This document shows, piece by piece, positions 41,801 through 47,800 of a stretch of DNA of 64,000 bases. The first letter of the stretch is position 1, and every line of letters begins with the position of its first letter. Position numbers and translations under genes: made by a program. Source of the stretch: Yuukianura sp. NJ FZ-2021 (lineage: Eukaryota); NCBI GenBank assembly GCA_046563655.1, contig CM102283.1, positions 1,736,001-1,800,000 on the forward strand, given 5' to 3'. The notes under the pieces were generated by a model. It worked only from the letters and a program-made list of their open reading frames with translations, made no database searches and had not been told where the DNA came from.

Positions 41801-44800
41801 GCTCTGGTGGGACTTCAGATTTACATGGGGGCCCTTACGCAGAAGTGTATCAAGGACCTCCCATGGGATCCTTCCTGGAATGAATCCGAGTACAACGCAA
41901 GAGTCAAGATCCATAACAATAATTCGGACAATTGGGAGCGGGACCCAATTATGGAAGAGTACATCTTATGCGGTAATCATACGGGAGCTGGGTAAGAATA
42001 TTTAGGTTTTCCTGATATGATGTACAAAAAACAACATTAAAGAAAAGATAATCCGAAATTTGTAAGTGCCATTTTCAAAATTGCTTTTGAAAATTCTTTG
42101 AAAGATGTAAATTGCCGAACTACACTTGTAAGGCTGGTTATGGTCCGAACCCTGACTACGGTTACACGTCATTCGACTCTTTCGGATCCGCGCTTCTATC
42201 TGCTTTTCGGTTGATGACACAGGATTACTGGGAAAGACTCTACCAACAGGTAAACATTCATACATGCCTACATAATTACATACTCTGTTTAAATAACATA
42301 ATTCCAAATTTCAAAACGTTAAAAATTTAGTAGGAAAACCACTTTTTTTAAATAACATAATTCCAAATTTCAAAACGTTAAAAATTTAGGAAGAAAATCA
42401 CTCTTTTTAAATAACATAATTCCAAATTTCAAAACGTAAAAAATTTAGTAGGGAAATCACTCTTTTTAAATAACATAATTTCAATTTTCAAACCGTTAAA
42501 AATTAACTTCTTACTTTACTTACACACATACTGATGTTCGTTGTTTAATCTGAAATGAATTTGATTGTTTAGATTCTTCTTGCTTCTGGTCCATGGCACA
42601 TGCTGTTCTTTATCGTCATCATTTTCCTTGGCTCCTTTTACCTCGTCAACTTGATTTTGGCCATTGTCGCCATGTCATACGACGAACTCCAAAAGAAATC
42701 AGAGGAAGAGGAACTGGCCAATGCTGCTGAATTGGAAAACATGCGCGTAGGAATTTAATTTTGGATTCTACAGTTTCATCCAAAGGTCAAACCGAGCGAT
42801 CTGCTTTTGTTTTCAGGCGGAAGAGGCAACTGCGCAGCAGAAATTGGCTGACGACGCAGCGGAGTTCCACCGGAGAGAGGCTGGAGGCGGCGACAGTCCG
42901 ACTGTGAAGACTCCATCAGAGTACTCTTGTCGCAGTTACGAAGGTTGGGTGGGTGATGCTGGTGACAACAAAGAACTCAAGTCCATGCGATCCGAAGTGT
43001 CGCTTCCAAGAGACGAATATGCTAAAGGGGCGGGTATGAAAAGCAGAAAAGCAAGTTTGAGTTTACCCGGGAGTCCGTTTAACGTCAGAAGAGGATCCAG
43101 AGGATCTCATATGAATTACAAAAAGAGTCGAAATGGGGGAGACAAGAAGCCGCTTGTGCTATCGACGTACATGGATGCACAGGAGCATCTTCCGTATGCA
43201 GACGACTCAACAGCAGCCACGCCCATGTCGGAAGAAAACGGAACAATTTTGGTTCAGAACTACAGTAAGACAGGTTTTTTCTATTTTTTTTTTCAAAAAC
43301 TATTACATTTTAAAAAAGGAAATTTTCTTTTCGAATTATAAATGTTTGATTTTTTTTTGAAAAGCATCTATGGGCAGTCGACATTCTTCGTACAACTCAC
43401 ACGCTTCCCGTTTTTCGTACACTTCGCATGGAGATTTGATGGGGAAAAACTTTGGATTTGGACTGGGAGTTCCAGTGACAAAAGAAAGTCAGCTCCGCAT
43501 GCGCTCAAAGACGATGAACTATGACCCCGAGAAAATGGTGAGTCGGTGACCTTTGACCTGTTGACCTGGATTTCACTTGTGATATGAAGATTTTGTCACT
43601 TTTATCGTTCTGTCAATAGGGAAGTTGTGAAGACATGCGCAAACCGAAGTGTGAAGGTGACCACGGTTACTATGGTGACGGGCACATGCGTCCTGGAGAC
43701 GGAATGGACCTGAAGGACGTCATGGTGCTCAACGAAATTATTGACCAGGCTGGTGGACGTGGCAGTAAAGTTAGTGAACGCGTGGGTACGTTTGTTCTTG
43801 TAGTTTTGCTCCACATGCCCGCTGTTTTAAGATGTACTCACTAAACATGACTGTAGAAATTTTTAGAAAAGTTGCCAGAAAAATTTTGAAGTTGATTCGA
43901 ATCACTTTTTTTTAATTTTCTTAAAAAATCACTTGGCACGCTTCTGGATCACTCGGTGCACCTCACATCACTTCACCTCACTGCGACGACTGTAGTTACA
44001 GCATACCATTTTCCTGCAGAGGAAGAAGAAAATGCCAACCTCATGAAACAGAAGATCATCGAAGGCTGTTTTCGCTGTATTGACATTTTCTGTGTCTGGG
44101 AGTGGGGATTTCCGTGGAGTTTTCTGCAAAAGTGTGTCTCGTTTATTGTTTTCGATCCTTTTGCTGAACTGTTCATCACTCTTGCTATTGGTATCAACAC
44201 GCTGTTCATGGCCATGGACCACCATGGGCTCGACAAGAATCCAATCATGGAGGCCACACTCAAAATTGGCAACAAGGTGCTACTAAAAACTTATAAATTT
44301 TAGTAGATCTTGTTGTGTTGACTTAATTGTCGTTGCACTTTTAGGTGTTTTCGACAATTTTTGCTGTGGAGGCTTCCATGAAGTTGGTTGCGATGAGTCC
44401 CAAGTATTACTTTCAAGTTGGTTGGAACATTTTTGACTTCATTATTGTCGCTCTGTCACTTCTGGAAATGGCATTCGAAGATGCAAATCTGCCTGGAATT
44501 TCGGCACTCAGAAGTTTCAGATTGGTAGGTTTGAGTCCAGGAATCAAAAAAGTAGGCAGGGGAATTTGAAATTTTGAAAATGTTTTGGAATTTTGTATTT
44601 AGCTTCGTGTTTTCAAGTTGGCCAAGTCCTGGCCCACTCTCAACCTTCTGATCAGCATCATGGGCAAAACAATGGGAGCACTTGGAAATCTCGTCTTTGT
44701 CCTCATCATTATCATCTTCATCTTCGCAGTGATGGGAATGCAACTCTTTTCCAAAAATTATTTCGGTCAGATTTGTTCAAAACAAACCAAATTTTGAAAA

Positions 44801-47800
44801 TGTGGAATGCTCAACTAATATTTTTGTTTTAGACAAAGTTGCAATGTTCAAATACAAACAAATGCCGCGCTGGAACTTCACTGATTTTTGGCACTCTTTC
44901 ATGATCATCTTCCGCGTTCTGTGTGGCGAGTGGATCGAGTCAATGTGGGACTGTGTTTTAGTTTGTGGATGGGTCTGCATTCCTTTTTTCCTGGCGACTG
45001 TCATCATTGGAAATTTGGTTGTGCTGAATCTGTTTCTGGCTTTGCTACTCAGCAGTTTCGGAGCTTCGAATCTGTCATCTCCGACGGCTGACGCTGAAAC
45101 GAACAAATTGGCAGAAGCGTTCAACCGAATCGGAAGGTTCAATCGATGGGTGAAAGGTTTAGCTCGGAAATTATTTCAATTCATTTTCAAAATTTTGACG
45201 TTTTGGCGCCGTGGGAAAAATCAAATTGGAGATCAAGTGCCGGAGGGAGTTCAAGTGGAGCTGACTCCACAACTTCCAATGAAACTTCCAACTGAAGAAC
45301 TCCCGCCAGAACCCAAAGAAAAAAGTGCTTTTGATACTGATTCAGTCGGAGTTGGAATTGCACTTCAAGGTAAAATGCTGCAAACTTTTTCTTTTCTTTT
45401 TTTTCCCAAATTTTTATAAAATGGGTAAAAATGTTGATAATTTTGTGGCGTTTTCAGCGGCGGGACAATTCAAAAGCAAGTTAGCCCAGAAAGCTCGGCT
45501 CGTCATGGCCACCAACCGACTGGTCAACAGCCTCCAGCAAATGGCTTCTGACCGAACTGGAGTCGACGCACCGCAAACCAAAGTTGAATTTGAGCCGAAA
45601 GATCAAAAAGAAGATCCAGAATCTTTCAGTCTCAAATCCTATGGATCTCACAATTACAAAAACTACCCGAAAGAGTCCACTGGAAGAGCAATTTCTACTG
45701 AAACTTTTGAAGAGGAAATTAGCAAAATGGGAGCAACAGAAGAATATGAAGGAGATGAAGAGAAGCGGGATTTTGAAAAAGAGGAAGTTGATTGGATAGA
45801 AGAAGCTGAAGGAGGTGAAGAAGAGGAAGAAGAGGTCAAACCAGTACATCATCATGGTCCACCGAAGGAAGAGGAAGAAGAGTATCCACATGATTGTTGT
45901 CCACCGAGATTTTACGAACGATTTCCGATTTTCCTGGTGGACGAAACACCTTTCGGAGTGGGTTGGGCCAACTTGAGACTCAAAACGTTTCAGCTCATTG
46001 AAAACAAATACTTTGAAACAGCCGTCATCATCATGATTCTACTGTCATCCATGGCTTTGGTAAGATCATGTTTCAAAAAATGTTTTGTCAACGTTCTAAA
46101 ATCGTTTTTTAAACGACTGTAACCTGACTGTAAAAAGTGGCCAAAAGTAGAATTATGATGTATTGTTTTGTATCAAAATTTTATCAGTATTTTTTTTTTC
46201 ACTCATCTAACGGAAATCGGGTTTCCGGTGTCGATTTCGCCTTGATGAAATCCTGTAAATTACACAGAATACCTAAAATTCCTTGGTACTAGTTGATGAG
46301 AAGATGAGATAATGCTAAGTCTCAGGCAAGGTTGTATAAATCGAAATATTTTTTCTGTTTTTTTCCTTAACAGGTTACGCCATAACTTCTGTTTTAAAAA
46401 AAATTGTTTGGTTTGAATATTTTCTGCAATTTGTTGATTCGCAAATGGAATATGGAATGCGTACAAAATTCTTACAAAAGTTTTTTTTTGGTAAAAAGTG
46501 AGTTATGGCATAACCTGTTAGCAGTTGTCCCTTGTTAGCAACCTTGGTCCCAGGAATACCTAAAACTTCTAGGTACTCGATGAGATACTCCTAAGCCCCA
46601 GCAGGAATACCTAAAATTTTACCTTGTTAAAGATTTCTTGCTGTGTTTCAGGCTCTGGAGGATGTCAACTTGCAACACAATCCCATTTTACAAGACGTTT
46701 TGTACTACATGGATCGAATCTTTACCGTCGTGTTTGCAATTGAAATGTTGATCAAGTGGCTGGCCCTTGGTTTTCAAAATTATTTCACAAATGCCTGGTG
46801 CTGGTTGGATTTTTTCATTGTCATGCTGTCGCTCATCAACTTTGTCGCTGGAATGTTAGGATTTGGTGGAATTCAGGCACGATTTCAAAAAAAATTTCAA
46901 AGAAATACGAAAAAACAAATCTCCCAAAAAAATTGTTTTACAAAAACTTTGTTTTTCACAGGCTTTCAAAACCATGCGAACTCTGCGTGCCCTTCGACCT
47001 CTCCGTGCCATGTCCAGAATGCAGGGAATGCGGGTAAGCTTGGATTTCAGAATTTCAAAATCGGAGGAATTTGGCGCCAAAATGTTTGAACTGTTTGCAG
47101 GTCGTGGTGAATGCGCTTGTGCAGGCCATTCCCGTCCATCTTCAATGTGTTGCTGGTGTGTCTCATCTTTTGGTTGATCTTTGCCATCATGGGAGTCCAA
47201 CTATTCAGTGGAAAATACTACAAATGTCTAGATACGACTATAGATCCACCGAATGACTACTTGGACTTCCGGCTAATCGGGGACAAACAAGCTTGCGAGG
47301 AATCAGAATTCAACTATACTTGGACTCTGTCACGCATGAACTTTGACCATGTTGGAAAAGCCTATCTGAGTCTATTTCAAGTTGCCACGTTCAAAGGGTG
47401 GATTCCAATTATGAACGATGCAATTGATTCAAGACAGGTCAGACTCAAGGTTTCACGGAGAAAACTTTTACATTTTATATTTTGAAATTATACTTTCATA
47501 TTTCAGTTAAAGTTGTGTTGATTTTTTTTTTTTTTTGAAATTTAGGTAGACGAGCAACCATATCGAGAAGTGAACATTGCGATGTACGTGTACTTTGTGA
47601 TCTTCATAATTTTCGGTTCCTTCTTCACTCTGAACTTGTTTATCGGAGTGATCATTGACAATTTCAATGAACAAAAGAAAAAGGCGGGAGGATCTTTGGA
47701 GATGTTCATGACTGACGATCAGAAGAAGTACTACAACGCCATGAAGAAAATGGGATCCAAGAAACCAATGAAGGCCATTCCCAGGCCACGGGTCAGTTTT

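What the first reader, a model, noticed from the sequence alone, without database searches (positions are those of the whole stretch)
44660..47610. Nav carries a T929V-equivalent and other pyrethroid-pocket substitutions
Seen: IIS4-5/IIS5 reads [23 protein letters not shown], with GTC (Val) at 44693-44695 and ATC (Ile) at 44705-44707; IIS6 reads [14 protein letters not shown]6 reads [15 protein letters not shown]. Knowledge (housefly numbering, recalled): the consensus is ..GNLTFVLCIII.., T929V/I confers strong pyrethroid/DDT resistance, and C933 and F1530 line the same pocket. Here T929V, C933I, V1010I and F1530I co-occur while M918, L925, L1014, F1534 and F1538 are wild type. Inference: a duplicated, intrinsically toxin-insensitive channel paralog, perhaps adapted to natural neurotoxins.
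Basis: partly seen in the sequence, partly recalled or inferred. Interest (0 to 1): 0.78.

Follow-up and report, generated by a model that had tools for sequence, protein, structure and literature searches.

The report
Springtail sodium channel with built-in kdr residues
This is the ordinary nerve sodium-channel gene of a springtail, and its "pyrethroid-resistance" residues are the normal state in every springtail channel examined, part of an old remodelling of channel domain II rather than a special resistant gene copy.

Summary
GTC (Val) at 44693-44695 and ATC (Ile) at 44705-44707 sit at housefly positions 929 and 933. Ile is also present at 1010 (45003-45005) and 1530 (47600-47602). M918, L925, L1014, F1534 and F1538 are unchanged.

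The gene is a 26-exon, 2020-codon para-type (DEKA, MFM) sodium channel at 38806-49663 on the + strand. It sits inside the Collembola clade (support 100). Its nearest relative is Allacma fusca para (71% identity).

V929, I/V933 and I/V1530 occur in all named springtail para proteins that hold those regions, in both old paralog groups. So they are lineage-wide, not specific to one paralog and not a recent kdr mutation.

They belong to a wider pattern. Thirteen of 18 springtail-diagnostic changes at otherwise conserved sites lie in domain II (p = 2e-5). The springtail stem branch is about four times longer in domain II than in the other domains. [quoted passage not shown]

The window has one extra base at 47129 that breaks the frame. 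Read contigs of three runs lack it, and spliced RNA contigs exist, so a pseudogene is unlikely. The second Nav copy in the window is a truncated fragment. Reduced pyrethroid sensitivity is inferred, not shown.

The parts
38806..49663 (+). Para-type (Nav1) voltage-gated sodium channel gene: 26 exons, 2020 codons, stop TAG at 49664-49666
   Evidence: Exon junctions come from frame-checked GT/GC..AG pairs guided by tblastn of springtail para proteins. It aligns over its full length with Allacma fusca P0176 (71% identity over 2028 columns). DEKA filter, MFM motif and four S4 motifs are present. Pfam Ion_trans and Na_trans_assoc match single exons.
44020..44276 (+). Exon 12: pre-IIS1, IIS1 and the IIS1-S2 loop (loop 44220-44258, two residues longer than in other arthropods). 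Diagnostic changes: C>G 44106-08, C>A 44184-86, M>L 44229-31
   Evidence: Alignment; diagnostic-site scans; coordinates.
44345..44524 (+). Exon 13: IIS2, IIS3, the IIS3-S4 loop (44468-44503, two residues longer) and the start of IIS4. Diagnostic changes: F>V 44345-47, A>T 44354-56, T>I 44357-59, V>L 44489-91, L>I 44498-500, V>A 44504-06
44603..44765 (+). Exon 14: IIS4, S4-S5 linker and IIS5. Holds M918 (44660-62), L925 (44681-83), V929 (GTC 44693-95), L932 (44702-04), I933 (ATC 44705-07), I936 (44714-16) and G>S 44750-52
   Evidence: X1 contig record 1 covers 44591-44886 with 0 differences.
44833..45369 (+). Exon 15: IIS5-S6 pore loop (M>W 44889-91, V>I 44907-09, filter E 44928-30), IIS6 with I1010 (45003-05), I1011, L1014 (45015-17), V1016 and F1020, and the start of the II-III linker
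47546..47791 (+). Exon 20: IIIS6 with V1526 (47588-90), V1529, I1530 (ATC 47600-02), F1534 (47612-14), F1537 and F1538 (47624-26), plus the MFM inactivation motif (47702-)
47129..47130 (+). One extra T in ...GCC ATT CCC GTC..., which shifts the frame between [11 protein letters not shown] and [13 protein letters not shown] (IIIS4-S5 linker)
   Evidence: The frame change is seen in ORFs and tblastn. 'Left out 1' at 47129 was seen in X1 (depth 401 of 401), X2 (26.3 of 92.8) and X4 (4.77 of 4.77) (table 4).
46877..46961 (+). Intron 17, with a GC donor (GCACGA) instead of GT
   Evidence: This is the only frame-keeping junction that joins ...GFGGIQ to [11 protein letters not shown] as in the homologues. 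No RNA evidence covers it.
11598..13844 (+). Truncated, rearranged Nav pseudo-copy: exons 1-4, joined at about 13565-13569 to the end of exon 16, with further frame changes
   Evidence: Self-blastn shows 10721-13569 matching 37918-41030 at 92-96% and 13565-13844 matching 45792-46073 at 94%. tblastn pieces lie in frames 1, 1, 3, 3, 1. ORFs.
5798..13844 (+). Segmental duplication: a copy of 30577-35585 + 37918-41030 + 45792-46073 at 92-97% identity
37918..38047 (+). Relic of a Nav last exon (…DDPTTTDDLD.HKVTLLPSSRSPSVSSRMTDV*) about 750 bp upstream of exon 1. Its first part lies at 35474-35585, split off by an insertion at 35586-37917. The same relic, unsplit, is at 10614-10850
   Evidence: ORF translations, compared by eye with the gene's own C-terminus at 49500-49663; for the insertion.

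Best explanation
The stretch is part of the para-type (Nav1) sodium-channel gene of a springtail (Collembola).

Val at 929, Ile at 933 and Ile at 1530 are not mutations of this copy. They are the fixed, ancestral state of springtail para channels. They arose on the springtail stem lineage together with a burst of change centred on domain II. That burst covers the voltage sensor, its two outer loops, the S4-S5/S5 pyrethroid site PyR1 and the pore helix. Domain II was conserved again afterwards. Ile at 1010 marks one of two old springtail para subgroups, the one that holds this gene, Allacma fusca para and one Orchesella dallaii paralog.

Inferred mechanism:
- Val 929 removes the Thr hydroxyl that contacts pyrethroids and DDT in PyR1.
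- Ile 933 replaces the Cys.
- Ile/Val 1530 removes an aromatic ring on the IIIS6 face that carries F1534 and F1537.
Together these should leave springtail channels constitutively less sensitive to pyrethroids and DDT.

The gene is most likely intact and expressed. The one-base excess at 47129 is most likely an assembly error or confined to one haplotype.

Shown: the sequence states, their placement, their distribution over taxa, the domain II burst, and spliced RNA contigs. Inferred: any effect on toxin or insecticide sensitivity.
For: Identity of the gene:
- The best hits are springtail para proteins.
- The window protein lies inside a springtail clade with SH-aLRT 100 in two trees (28 rows, 19 rows).
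- It is 71% identical to Allacma fusca P0176 over 2028 aligned columns.
- It has the DEKA filter, the MFM motif and four S4 motifs.

Lineage-wide state (284 proteins):
- 929 is V in 7 of 7 named springtail proteins with the region (an 8th, P0050, lacks it). Of the 276 proteins without a springtail label, 273 matched the motif and 265 of those have T.
- 933 is I in 5 and V in 2 of those 7.
- 1530 is V in 4 and I in 2 of the 6 springtail proteins with that region, and F in 203 of the 212 others that matched.
- Allacma shares all four of the window's states.
- Both subclades carry V929.

Domain II burst:
- 680 columns are identical in at least 16 of 18 other arthropods. 18 of these differ in all 7 springtail rows, and 13 of the 18 lie in domain II (167 conserved columns). 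Fisher p = 2e-5, and similar at thresholds 14 and 15.
- With 6 springtail rows the figure was 13 of 15, p = 6.6e-7. The same scan on insects, chelicerates, malacostracans and ostracods put 1, 0, 0 and 1 of their diagnostic changes in domain II.
- On a fixed tree the springtail stem is 0.42 substitutions per site in domain II, against 0.10-0.14 in domains I, III and IV.
- Rates within springtails are ordinary: within/rest is 0.34 against 0.30-0.46.
- Both outer loops of the domain II sensor are 2 residues longer in all 7 springtail rows.

Relevance of the sites:
- T929V occurs in field-resistant Bemisia tabaci and cat fleas, and C933A is an engineered site mutation (PMC9409284 tables).
- The deltamethrin nitrile contacts T929 in that paper's model.
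- T929I gives resistance to deltamethrin, permethrin, fenfluthrin and DDT in oocyte-expressed channels (PMC5599462 passages).

Field hints:
- Lucerne flea, a springtail, rose sharply after a bifenthrin spray (bioRxiv 10.1101/2024.10.21.619338 passages).

Intactness:
- Over 26 exons the only lesion is one extra base.
- Contigs lacking it were seen in X1, X2 and X4.
- RNA contigs of run X6 join 45367 to 45456 (GT..AG, 88 nt skipped), and pieces of one contig abut at 47439/47548. Both are exactly my introns 15 and 19 (tables 5 and 8).
Against: - No electrophysiology or binding data exist for any springtail channel. The effect of V929 in this sequence background is unknown.
- Springtails are not immune. 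Lambda-cyhalothrin reduced Folsomia candida reproduction at all doses from 7 g/ha, though adult survival was unaffected (PMC9370418 passages).
- Lucerne-flea flare-ups after pyrethroid sprays can also come from loss of predators.
- Sampling is thin: four named species plus the window species. None is labelled Poduromorpha or Neelipleona, and no Diplura or Protura were retrieved.
- All the changes lie on one branch, so this is a single evolutionary event. The columns are not independent, so the Fisher p overstates the evidence. At threshold 17 of 18 it is only p = 0.036, and at 18 of 18 there is one change.
- In run X2 most of the depth at 47129 (66.5 of 92.8) does not show the missing letter, so the frameshift allele may be real in some copy or haplotype.
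- One intron needs a GC donor, which has no RNA support.
- The RNA run is a metatranscriptome. Its contigs show that this gene or a near-identical one is spliced, not that this very copy is.
Confidence: 0.8

Rival explanations
1. One reading: a duplicated Nav paralog that specialised into a toxin-insensitive channel, beside a normal paralog with the ancestral residues.
For: Para is duplicated in springtails. Folsomia candida has two proteins with different longest-contig lengths, and Orchesella dallaii has three. The window itself holds a second, partial Nav copy and last-exon relics. The window gene belongs to the subgroup marked by I1010.
Against: V929, I/V933 and I/V1530 are present in all named springtail para proteins of both subgroups that hold those regions. 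No springtail protein with T929/C933 was found among the 284 proteins fetched. The other copy in the window lacks domains II to IV and has frame breaks. The whole genome was not available, so a further paralog cannot be excluded.
Confidence: 0.07
2. A recent insecticide-selected kdr-type allele (T929V) in a pyrethroid-exposed population.
For: T929V is a known field resistance substitution in whitefly and cat flea.
Against: The same residue is fixed in four named springtail species and in the window species, which are only 63-71% identical overall. It co-occurs with many other fixed domain II changes. ACN to GTC needs two base changes (my reading of the codon). L1014 and M918 are wild type.
Confidence: 0.02
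3. The window copy is a young pseudogene. The frameshift at 47129 and the GC donor at 46877 are real, and another near-identical copy or allele does the work.
For: The window has the extra base. In X2 66.5 of 92.8 depth does not show the deletion. The region is prone to duplication: 92-97% copies lie in the window, many contigs at 90-99% likeness lie on the stretch, and a contig in X1 and X2 joins 44804 to 46603 with 40 foreign letters (table 5c).
Against: There is no other stop or frame break in 2020 codons, whereas the 92-96% copy has several. In X1 all the depth (401 of 401), and in X4 all the depth (4.77 of 4.77), lacks the extra base. The listed differences between read contigs and the window in the conserved part of exon 15 fall mostly on third codon positions (7 of 8 at 44888-45056, my count table 3), as expected under constraint. 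Even if this reading were true, it would not change the reading of the residues.
Confidence: 0.15
4. The springtail-specific domain II changes, V929 included, are functionally neutral or tune gating (or compensate for one another) and have nothing to do with toxins or insecticides.
For: All changes sit on one branch. Most are conservative (L>I, V>I, V>A, M>L). Folsomia candida reproduction responds to lambda-cyhalothrin at field rates.
Against: The changes hit columns identical in at least 16 of 18 arthropods from chelicerates to insects, and were then kept in all springtails. The sites include a validated pyrethroid/DDT contact and the two loops that natural spider toxins use (PMC4935840 passages).
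Confidence: 0.3

Closest known systems
Allacma fusca para-type sodium channel (P0176, 2029 aa; the source names it 'unnamed protein product / EF-hand domain-containing protein')
   Same: It aligns with the window protein end to end (71% identity over 2028 columns). It has identical motifs at all four sites (V929, I933, I1010, I1530) and the same IIS3-S4 loop, [16 protein letters not shown].
   Different: It is a different species, 29% diverged. In the tree Allacma pairs with an Orchesella dallaii paralog (support 85), and the window gene's exact place at the base of the springtail clade is unresolved.
Insect para with the kdr-type substitution T929V (Bemisia tabaci; Ctenocephalides felis together with L1014F)
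   Same: The same residue at the same column of IIS5 in pyrethroid site PyR1.
   Different: In those insects it is a polymorphic allele selected by insecticide on a T929/C933/F1530 background. Here it is fixed across a whole hexapod class, with I/V933, I/V1530 and a remodelled domain II, and without L1014F or M918 changes.
Acarine sodium channels with natural G/A/V at 933, and mammalian channels with natural I at 918
   Same: These are natural, lineage-wide differences at pyrethroid-site residues. They are thought to set the taxon selectivity of pyrethroids (PMC5599462 passages).
   Different: Other positions and residues are involved. 933 is a small residue in acarines and a bulky Ile/Val here (my searches show G/A in chelicerates). 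The acarine and mammalian cases have functional data; the springtail case has none.
Cockroach and fly para variants whose domain II S1-S2 loop residues set sensitivity to the spider toxins Dc1a and Ae1a
   Same: [quoted passage not shown]
   Different: Those are one or two point differences between insect species, with measured effects. Here both loops carry 2-residue insertions and several substitutions, shared by all springtails sampled, with no measurements.

Membership tests
Nav1 / para-type voltage-gated sodium channel alpha subunit | Four homologous six-helix domains with positively charged S4 segments | tested here: met
   Full-length colinear alignment with para proteins. Four S4 motifs lie at aa 228, 840, 1356 and 1680; a fifth match of the same pattern at aa 997 lies in the II-III linker. 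Pfam Ion_trans matches exons 15 and 23 at 57 and 112 bits against a cut-off of 25.
Nav1 / para-type voltage-gated sodium channel alpha subunit | DEKA selectivity filter (Nav2/DSC1-type channels have DEEA; that is recalled) | tested here: met
   D 42223-25 (TQDYWE), E 44928-30 (CGEWIE), K 47393-95 (TFKGW), A 48679-81 (TSAGW).
Nav1 / para-type voltage-gated sodium channel alpha subunit | Hydrophobic inactivation motif in the III-IV linker (MFM in arthropods, IFM in vertebrates; recalled) | tested here: met
   EMFMTD at aa 1541-1546, from 47702.
Nav1 / para-type voltage-gated sodium channel alpha subunit | Sodium-channel-specific II-III linker domain (Pfam Na_trans_assoc) | tested here: inconclusive
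   The domain is split over exons 15 and 16. Each exon alone scores just under the cut-off (28.2 and 34.9 bits against 35.6). The homologues carry PF06512. The spliced protein was not scanned.
Nav1 / para-type voltage-gated sodium channel alpha subunit | Intact, expressed reading frame | tested here: inconclusive
   2020 codons are open except for one extra base at 47129, which is absent from contigs of X1, X2 (in part) and X4. Spliced RNA contigs cover introns 15 and 19. The GC donor of intron 17 is unconfirmed.
kdr / super-kdr target-site resistance allele | Substitution at a validated pyrethroid-site residue | tested here: met
   T929V. 933 and 1010 are also listed sites.
kdr / super-kdr target-site resistance allele | A derived allele that is polymorphic within a species and arose under insecticide selection | tested here: not met
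   It is fixed in 7 of 7 named springtail para proteins from four species and in the window, so it predates insecticides. Polymorphism within this species could not be surveyed beyond X1 record 1, which shows 0 differences.
kdr / super-kdr target-site resistance allele | Measured loss of pyrethroid/DDT sensitivity of the channel | not testable with these tools
   This needs oocyte expression. Only indirect field and soil-test reports were read.
Specialised toxin-resistant Nav paralog beside a sensitive one | The resistant residues are confined to one paralog, while another keeps the ancestral residues | tested here: not met
   Both springtail subclades carry V929, I/V933 and I/V1530. The second copy in the window is a fragment. 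The rest of this genome could not be searched.

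The most novel reading that the evidence does not exclude
At the origin of springtails the para sodium channel went through one episode of adaptive remodelling of domain II. [quoted passage not shown] On this reading the whole class is constitutively less sensitive to pyrethroids and DDT, and also to the domain II gating-modifier toxins of its main predators (spiders, mites, pseudoscorpions, centipedes). It would also make Folsomia candida, the standard soil test species (OECD 232), a poor stand-in for other non-target arthropods where sodium-channel insecticides are concerned.
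Probability: 0.2. Interest if true: 0.7.

Novelty: new variant of a known kind. Interest (0 to 1): 0.5.

Why it matters
Pyrethroids are among the most widely used insecticides, and springtails are key soil animals. Folsomia candida is the standard soil test species (OECD 232, cited in PMC9370418).

If all springtail channels carry a resistance-type residue at 929 plus changes at 933 and 1530, three things follow:
- Their response to pyrethroids and DDT is not representative of other non-target arthropods.
- The poor control of the lucerne flea by pyrethroids would have a simple target-site explanation.
- The springtail channel becomes a natural experiment for the PyR1 site, and for the domain II voltage sensor that spider and scorpion toxins use.

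I found no paper that mentions this. Searches returned nothing on springtail sodium-channel residues. Subscription journals and supplements were not searchable.

For the scan itself: the finding is real, but it is a trait of the class, not of this gene copy.

Tried and rejected
- Own-genome search: my first call had a format slip. The corrected call showed that no genome is held for this window. I therefore could not look for other Nav paralogs in the genome.
- Earlier scan notes: none exist for this genome.
- Protein search with the 55-aa exon 14: it did not enrich for V929 proteins. It added only unnamed fragments (P0130 and P0134 are identical to the springtail motif; P0152 and P0159 have I929).
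- The first two protein searches were limited to proteins of at most 2000 aa and so missed Allacma (2029 aa). A region search with P0012 found it. No housefly protein was retrieved, so numbering rests on anchor residues from a paper.
- My IIS6 pattern was mistyped and matched nothing. The IIS6 counts come: of 174 proteins, 149 matched (TVVIGNL 113, TVVIGNF 17, TVIIGNL 13, others 6).
- O'Reilly et al. 2006 (PMC1462714) is not held, so I could not check whether that model lists F1530.
- The strict scan (columns identical in all 18 others) left only 127 or 115 columns with 3 or 1 changes, too few to test.
- The first per-domain branch-length run failed because some rows lack a domain. I repeated it with those rows pruned (the dropped rows are listed there).
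- RNA contig record 26 of X6 touches 47098-47129 with 4 mismatches in 32 letters and then jumps. It is not informative about the frameshift.
- I looked for an acceptor that would bypass the frameshift. None keeps the conserved [11 protein letters not shown] (my reading).
- I looked for an alternative copy of exon 14, like the mutually exclusive exons c/d of insects (recalled). The flanking introns are 68-78 nt and hold none.
- No 3D distance check between 929/933 and 1530 was possible. No springtail protein holding domains II and III is short enough to fold, and model coordinates are not returned.

Full report
**What is in the window.** The window is eukaryotic DNA with short GT..AG introns and about 38% G+C. 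On the + strand, from the ATG at 38806 to the codon before the TAG at 49664, lies a 26-exon gene of 2020 codons. I built the model from open frames, tblastn of springtail para proteins and frame-checked splice pairs. It has four S4 motifs, a DEKA selectivity filter and an MFM inactivation motif. Pfam Ion_trans and Na_trans_assoc match its exons. It is a para-type (Nav1) sodium channel.

- GTC (Val) is at 44693-44695 and ATC (Ile) at 44705-44707, in [23 protein letters not shown].
- IIS6 reads [10 protein letters not shown], with Ile at 45003-45005.
- IIIS6 reads [15 protein letters not shown], with Ile at 47600-47602.
- phmmer against solved structures aligns the Val, without gaps, to the Thr of GNLT(L/I)VL in vertebrate channels.
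- I did not obtain the housefly protein. I checked the numbering against the anchor residues printed in the tables of PMC9409284 (passages read). Those tables use housefly numbering: M918, L925, T929, L932, C933, I936; V1010, I1011, N1013, L1014, V1016, F1020; V1529, I1533, F1534, F1537, F1538.
- Their identities and spacing fit the arthropod consensus [21 protein letters not shown] / [14 protein letters not shown] / [15 protein letters not shown] seen in the proteins I fetched.
- So the window has T929V, C933I, V1010I and F1530I.
- It also has V at 1526 (3i5), where most arthropods have L.

**Whose gene it is.** The best database hits are all springtail para proteins: Orchesella dallaii, Folsomia candida and O. 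cincta. No protein of the window's own species was in the collection.
- In a 28-row tree (LG+C20) and a 19-row tree (LG+G4), the window protein lies inside a springtail clade with SH-aLRT 100 on a long stem (0.28 and 0.22).
- A region search that allowed longer proteins added Allacma fusca para (P0176, 2029 aa). It is the closest relative, at 71% identity over 2028 aligned columns.
- Within springtails there are two groups. One holds both Folsomia proteins, two O. dallaii proteins and, O. cincta (support 100).
- The other rows are Allacma plus the third O. dallaii protein (support 85) and the window gene. The window gene's exact place at the base is unresolved.
- O. dallaii therefore has members of both groups, so para was duplicated early in springtail history.
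- The three rows outside the first group share Ile at 1010. The first group has Val.

**The residues are a trait of springtails, not of this copy.** Counts are over all 284 proteins fetched. Many of them are isoforms of one gene, so they are not independent.
- Position 929 is V in 7 of 7 named springtail proteins that hold the region. The eighth, P0050, lacks it.
- Of the 276 proteins without a springtail label, 273 matched the motif, and 265 of those have T.
- The 8 exceptions are the ostracod Notodromas monacha (V), two molluscs (I), P0066 (V; an unnamed protein that falls inside the springtail clade), and four unnamed fragments: P0130 and P0134 (V) and P0152 and P0159 (I).
- Position 933 is I in 5 and V in 2 of the springtail proteins. 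In the others it is C (246), G (15) or A (9), plus I in those three unnamed V929 proteins.
- Position 1530 is V in 4 and I in 2 of the 6 springtail proteins with that region, and F in 203 of the 212 others that matched.
- Allacma has exactly the window's four states.
- So 'a duplicated, intrinsically insensitive paralog' is not what the data show. Both old paralog groups carry the changes, which therefore go back to the springtail stem.
- A recent kdr allele is excluded for the same reason.

**A wider pattern: domain II.** I asked where springtails differ from an otherwise conserved arthropod consensus.
- With 18 non-springtail rows (chelicerates, a myriapod, crustaceans, insects) and 7 springtail rows, 680 columns are identical in at least 16 of the 18. 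Eighteen of those differ in every springtail row.
- Thirteen of the 18 lie in domain II, which holds 167 of the conserved columns. Fisher p = 2e-5, with p = 4e-5 at thresholds 14 and 15. It weakens to p = 0.036 at 17, and 18 leaves too few columns.
- The earlier run with 6 springtail rows gave 13 of 15, p = 6.6e-7. The same scan on insects, chelicerates, malacostracans and ostracods put 1, 0, 0 and 1 of their diagnostic changes in domain II.
- The 13 sites run from just before IIS1 to the pore helix: C>G, C>A, M>L, F>V, A>T/S, T>I, V>L, L>I, V>A, T929V, G>S/A, M>W/G, V>I.
- In the cores of domains I, III and IV the only diagnostic change, seen at the looser threshold of 14, is F1530I/V on IIIS6.
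- The alignment shows that all 7 springtail rows have a IIS1-S2 loop two residues longer and a IIS3-S4 loop two residues longer. They read ...[16 protein letters not shown], against ...E--GVQGLSVLRSFRL in most of the 13 other rows shown.
- With the topology fixed, the springtail stem is 0.42 substitutions per site in domain II (10.4% of the tree). It is 0.14, 0.10 and 0.13 (2.5% each) in domains I, III and IV.
- Within springtails, domain II evolves at an ordinary relative rate: within/rest is 0.34 against 0.30-0.46.
- That is one episode of fast change followed by renewed constraint.
- Caveats: it is a single branch, and neighbouring columns are not independent, so the p-values overstate the evidence.

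**How it probably works (inference).**
- T929 lies in pyrethroid site PyR1. T929V is a field resistance substitution in Bemisia tabaci, and with L1014F in the cat flea. C933A is an engineered mutation that alters pyrethroid action (PMC9409284 tables).
- In that paper's model the deltamethrin nitrile makes a favourable contact with T929.
- T929I protects oocyte-expressed channels against deltamethrin, permethrin, fenfluthrin and DDT. Position 933 differs between insects (C) and acarines (G/V/A) and is held to explain the selectivity of tau-fluvalinate (PMC5599462 passages).
- F1530 (3i9) is not listed in what I could read, and O'Reilly 2006 is not held. By helix periodicity it faces the same way as 3i5, F1534 (3i13) and F1537 (3i16), which are listed.
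- I therefore expect springtail channels to bind pyrethroids and DDT less well.

**Indirect field and soil evidence is mixed.**
- Lucerne flea, a springtail, rose sharply after a bifenthrin spray, and flare-ups after pyrethroids are cited there (bioRxiv 10.1101/2024.10.21.619338 passages).
[quoted passage not shown] That this means pyrethroids is my recollection of Roberts et al. 2009, which I did not see.
- Against this, lambda-cyhalothrin cut Folsomia candida reproduction at all doses from 7 g/ha, while adult survival was unaffected (PMC9370418 passages).

**The domain II sensor as a toxin receptor.** The loops changed in springtails are the ones that spider gating-modifier toxins use. Natural variation of one or two residues in the IIS1-S2 loop decides sensitivity to Ae1a and Dc1a, and many such toxins bind the IIS3b-S4 paddle (PMC4935840 passages). 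That springtails changed these loops under pressure from venomous predators is a hypothesis only.

**Is the gene alive?**
- The window has one base too many. ...GCC ATT CCC GTC CAT... should read A-I-P-S-I-F, and the frame shifts between [11 protein letters not shown] and [13 protein letters not shown]. No alternative acceptor avoids this.
- Laid contigs show 'one letter left out' at 47129 in run X1 (depth 401 of 401), in X2 (26.3 of 92.8; same sample as X1) and in X4 (4.77 of 4.77; another organism label and study).
- Dropping one T restores the frame.
- So the extra base is an assembly error, or is limited to one haplotype or copy. X2 suggests that the longer form may exist.
- There is no other lesion in 2020 codons.
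- Intron 17 needs a GC donor (46877), a minor but known class (recalled), and I have no RNA evidence for it.
- In a metatranscriptome run (X6), one contig joins 45367 to 45456, skipping 88 nt with GT..AG ends. Two pieces of another contig abut at 47439/47548. Both are exactly my introns 15 and 19, with 0-3 mismatches per piece (tables 5 and 8).
- This gene, or a near-identical one, is therefore transcribed and spliced.
- The contigs do not reach codons 929 or 1530. On the DNA side, X1 record 1 covers 44591-44886 without a difference.

**The 'other paralog' in the window.**
- 5798-13844 is a 92-97% copy of 30577-35585 + 37918-41030 + 45792-46073.
- Its Nav part (from the ATG at 11598) has exons 1-4 joined to the end of exon 16, with further frame changes. 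It is a truncated pseudo-copy without domain II.
- About 750 bp upstream of exon 1 of both copies lies a relic of a Nav last exon: 10614-10850, and 35474-35585 + 37918-38047.
- The locus has thus seen repeated tandem duplication.
- A contig in X1 and X2 that joins 44804 to 46603 through 40 other letters hints at yet another rearranged copy or allele (table 5c).

**Novelty and verdict.**
- The gene family and the T929V substitution are well known.
- What I did not find in print is that springtails as a group carry V929 with I/V933 and I/V1530, and that their para channel has a remodelled domain II. Searches returned nothing on this; subscription journals and supplements were not searchable.
- The finding is real, and its interest shifts from 'a special resistant paralog' to 'a class-wide natural variant of the channel'.
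- Functional consequences remain to be measured.

Noticed in passing
window 5798-13844 vs 30577-41030 and 45792-46073: Segmental duplication at 92-97% identity. It carries NIDO/VWA genes, a Nav last-exon relic and Nav exons 1-4, ending in a junction to the end of exon 16. Copy 2 has an extra 2.3 kb insertion at 35586-37917.
   Followed up: partly
window 10614-10850; 35474-35585 + 37918-38047: Relics of a Nav last exon (ending ...SSRMTDV*) lie about 750 bp upstream of exon 1 of both Nav copies. This suggests an older tandem array of Nav genes of which only the tail survives.
   Followed up: partly
window 44804 / 46603 (table 5c): One contig in each of runs X1 (depth 236) and X2 (25.5) joins 44804 to 46603 through 40 unrelated letters, so it lacks exons 15-16. 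This is another rearranged copy or a deletion allele somewhere in the sample.
   Followed up: no
window 46877-46961: Intron 17 of the Nav gene has a GC..AG boundary (GCACGA donor). No RNA contig covers it.
   Followed up: partly
window 2-913 (-), 7676-8758 (+), 21061-23145 (-), 28158-29168 (+), 32477-33571 (+): A tandem family of secreted-looking NIDO + von Willebrand A domain genes. Pfam was checked on 32477-33571 only. Some carry long Pro/Thr-rich repeats (TTPPTDKTTWPPGH...) that differ in length between copies.
   Followed up: partly
window 50946-53200, 53650-55577, 61039-61890, 62269-62990 (+): Downstream neighbours: a mitochondrial carrier, a haspin-like kinase, a weak TFIIF-beta match and a PHOSPHO-type phosphatase (Pfam on single exons). 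Two other ORFs (17202-17951, 19972-20370) gave no Pfam match. By eye they look like a retroelement reverse-transcriptase tail and a CAP/SCP-like domain; neither was tested.
   Followed up: partly
protein P0096 (Notodromas monacha, ostracod): It carries V at 929 (GNLVFVFG) independently of springtails, with the usual F at 1530. This is a convergent natural T929V in a crustacean.
   Followed up: no
protein P0066 (unnamed, 1350 aa): A divergent para-like protein that falls inside the springtail clade on a long branch (0.6-0.7). It reads TNLVIVLIIII at 929-933 and I at 1530. It may be a further springtail paralog or come from an unsampled lineage.
   Followed up: no
fetched proteins: 17 of the 149 proteins that matched the IIS6 pattern read GNF (F at 1014, the classical kdr change). 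I did not check which species' reference annotations these are.
   Followed up: no
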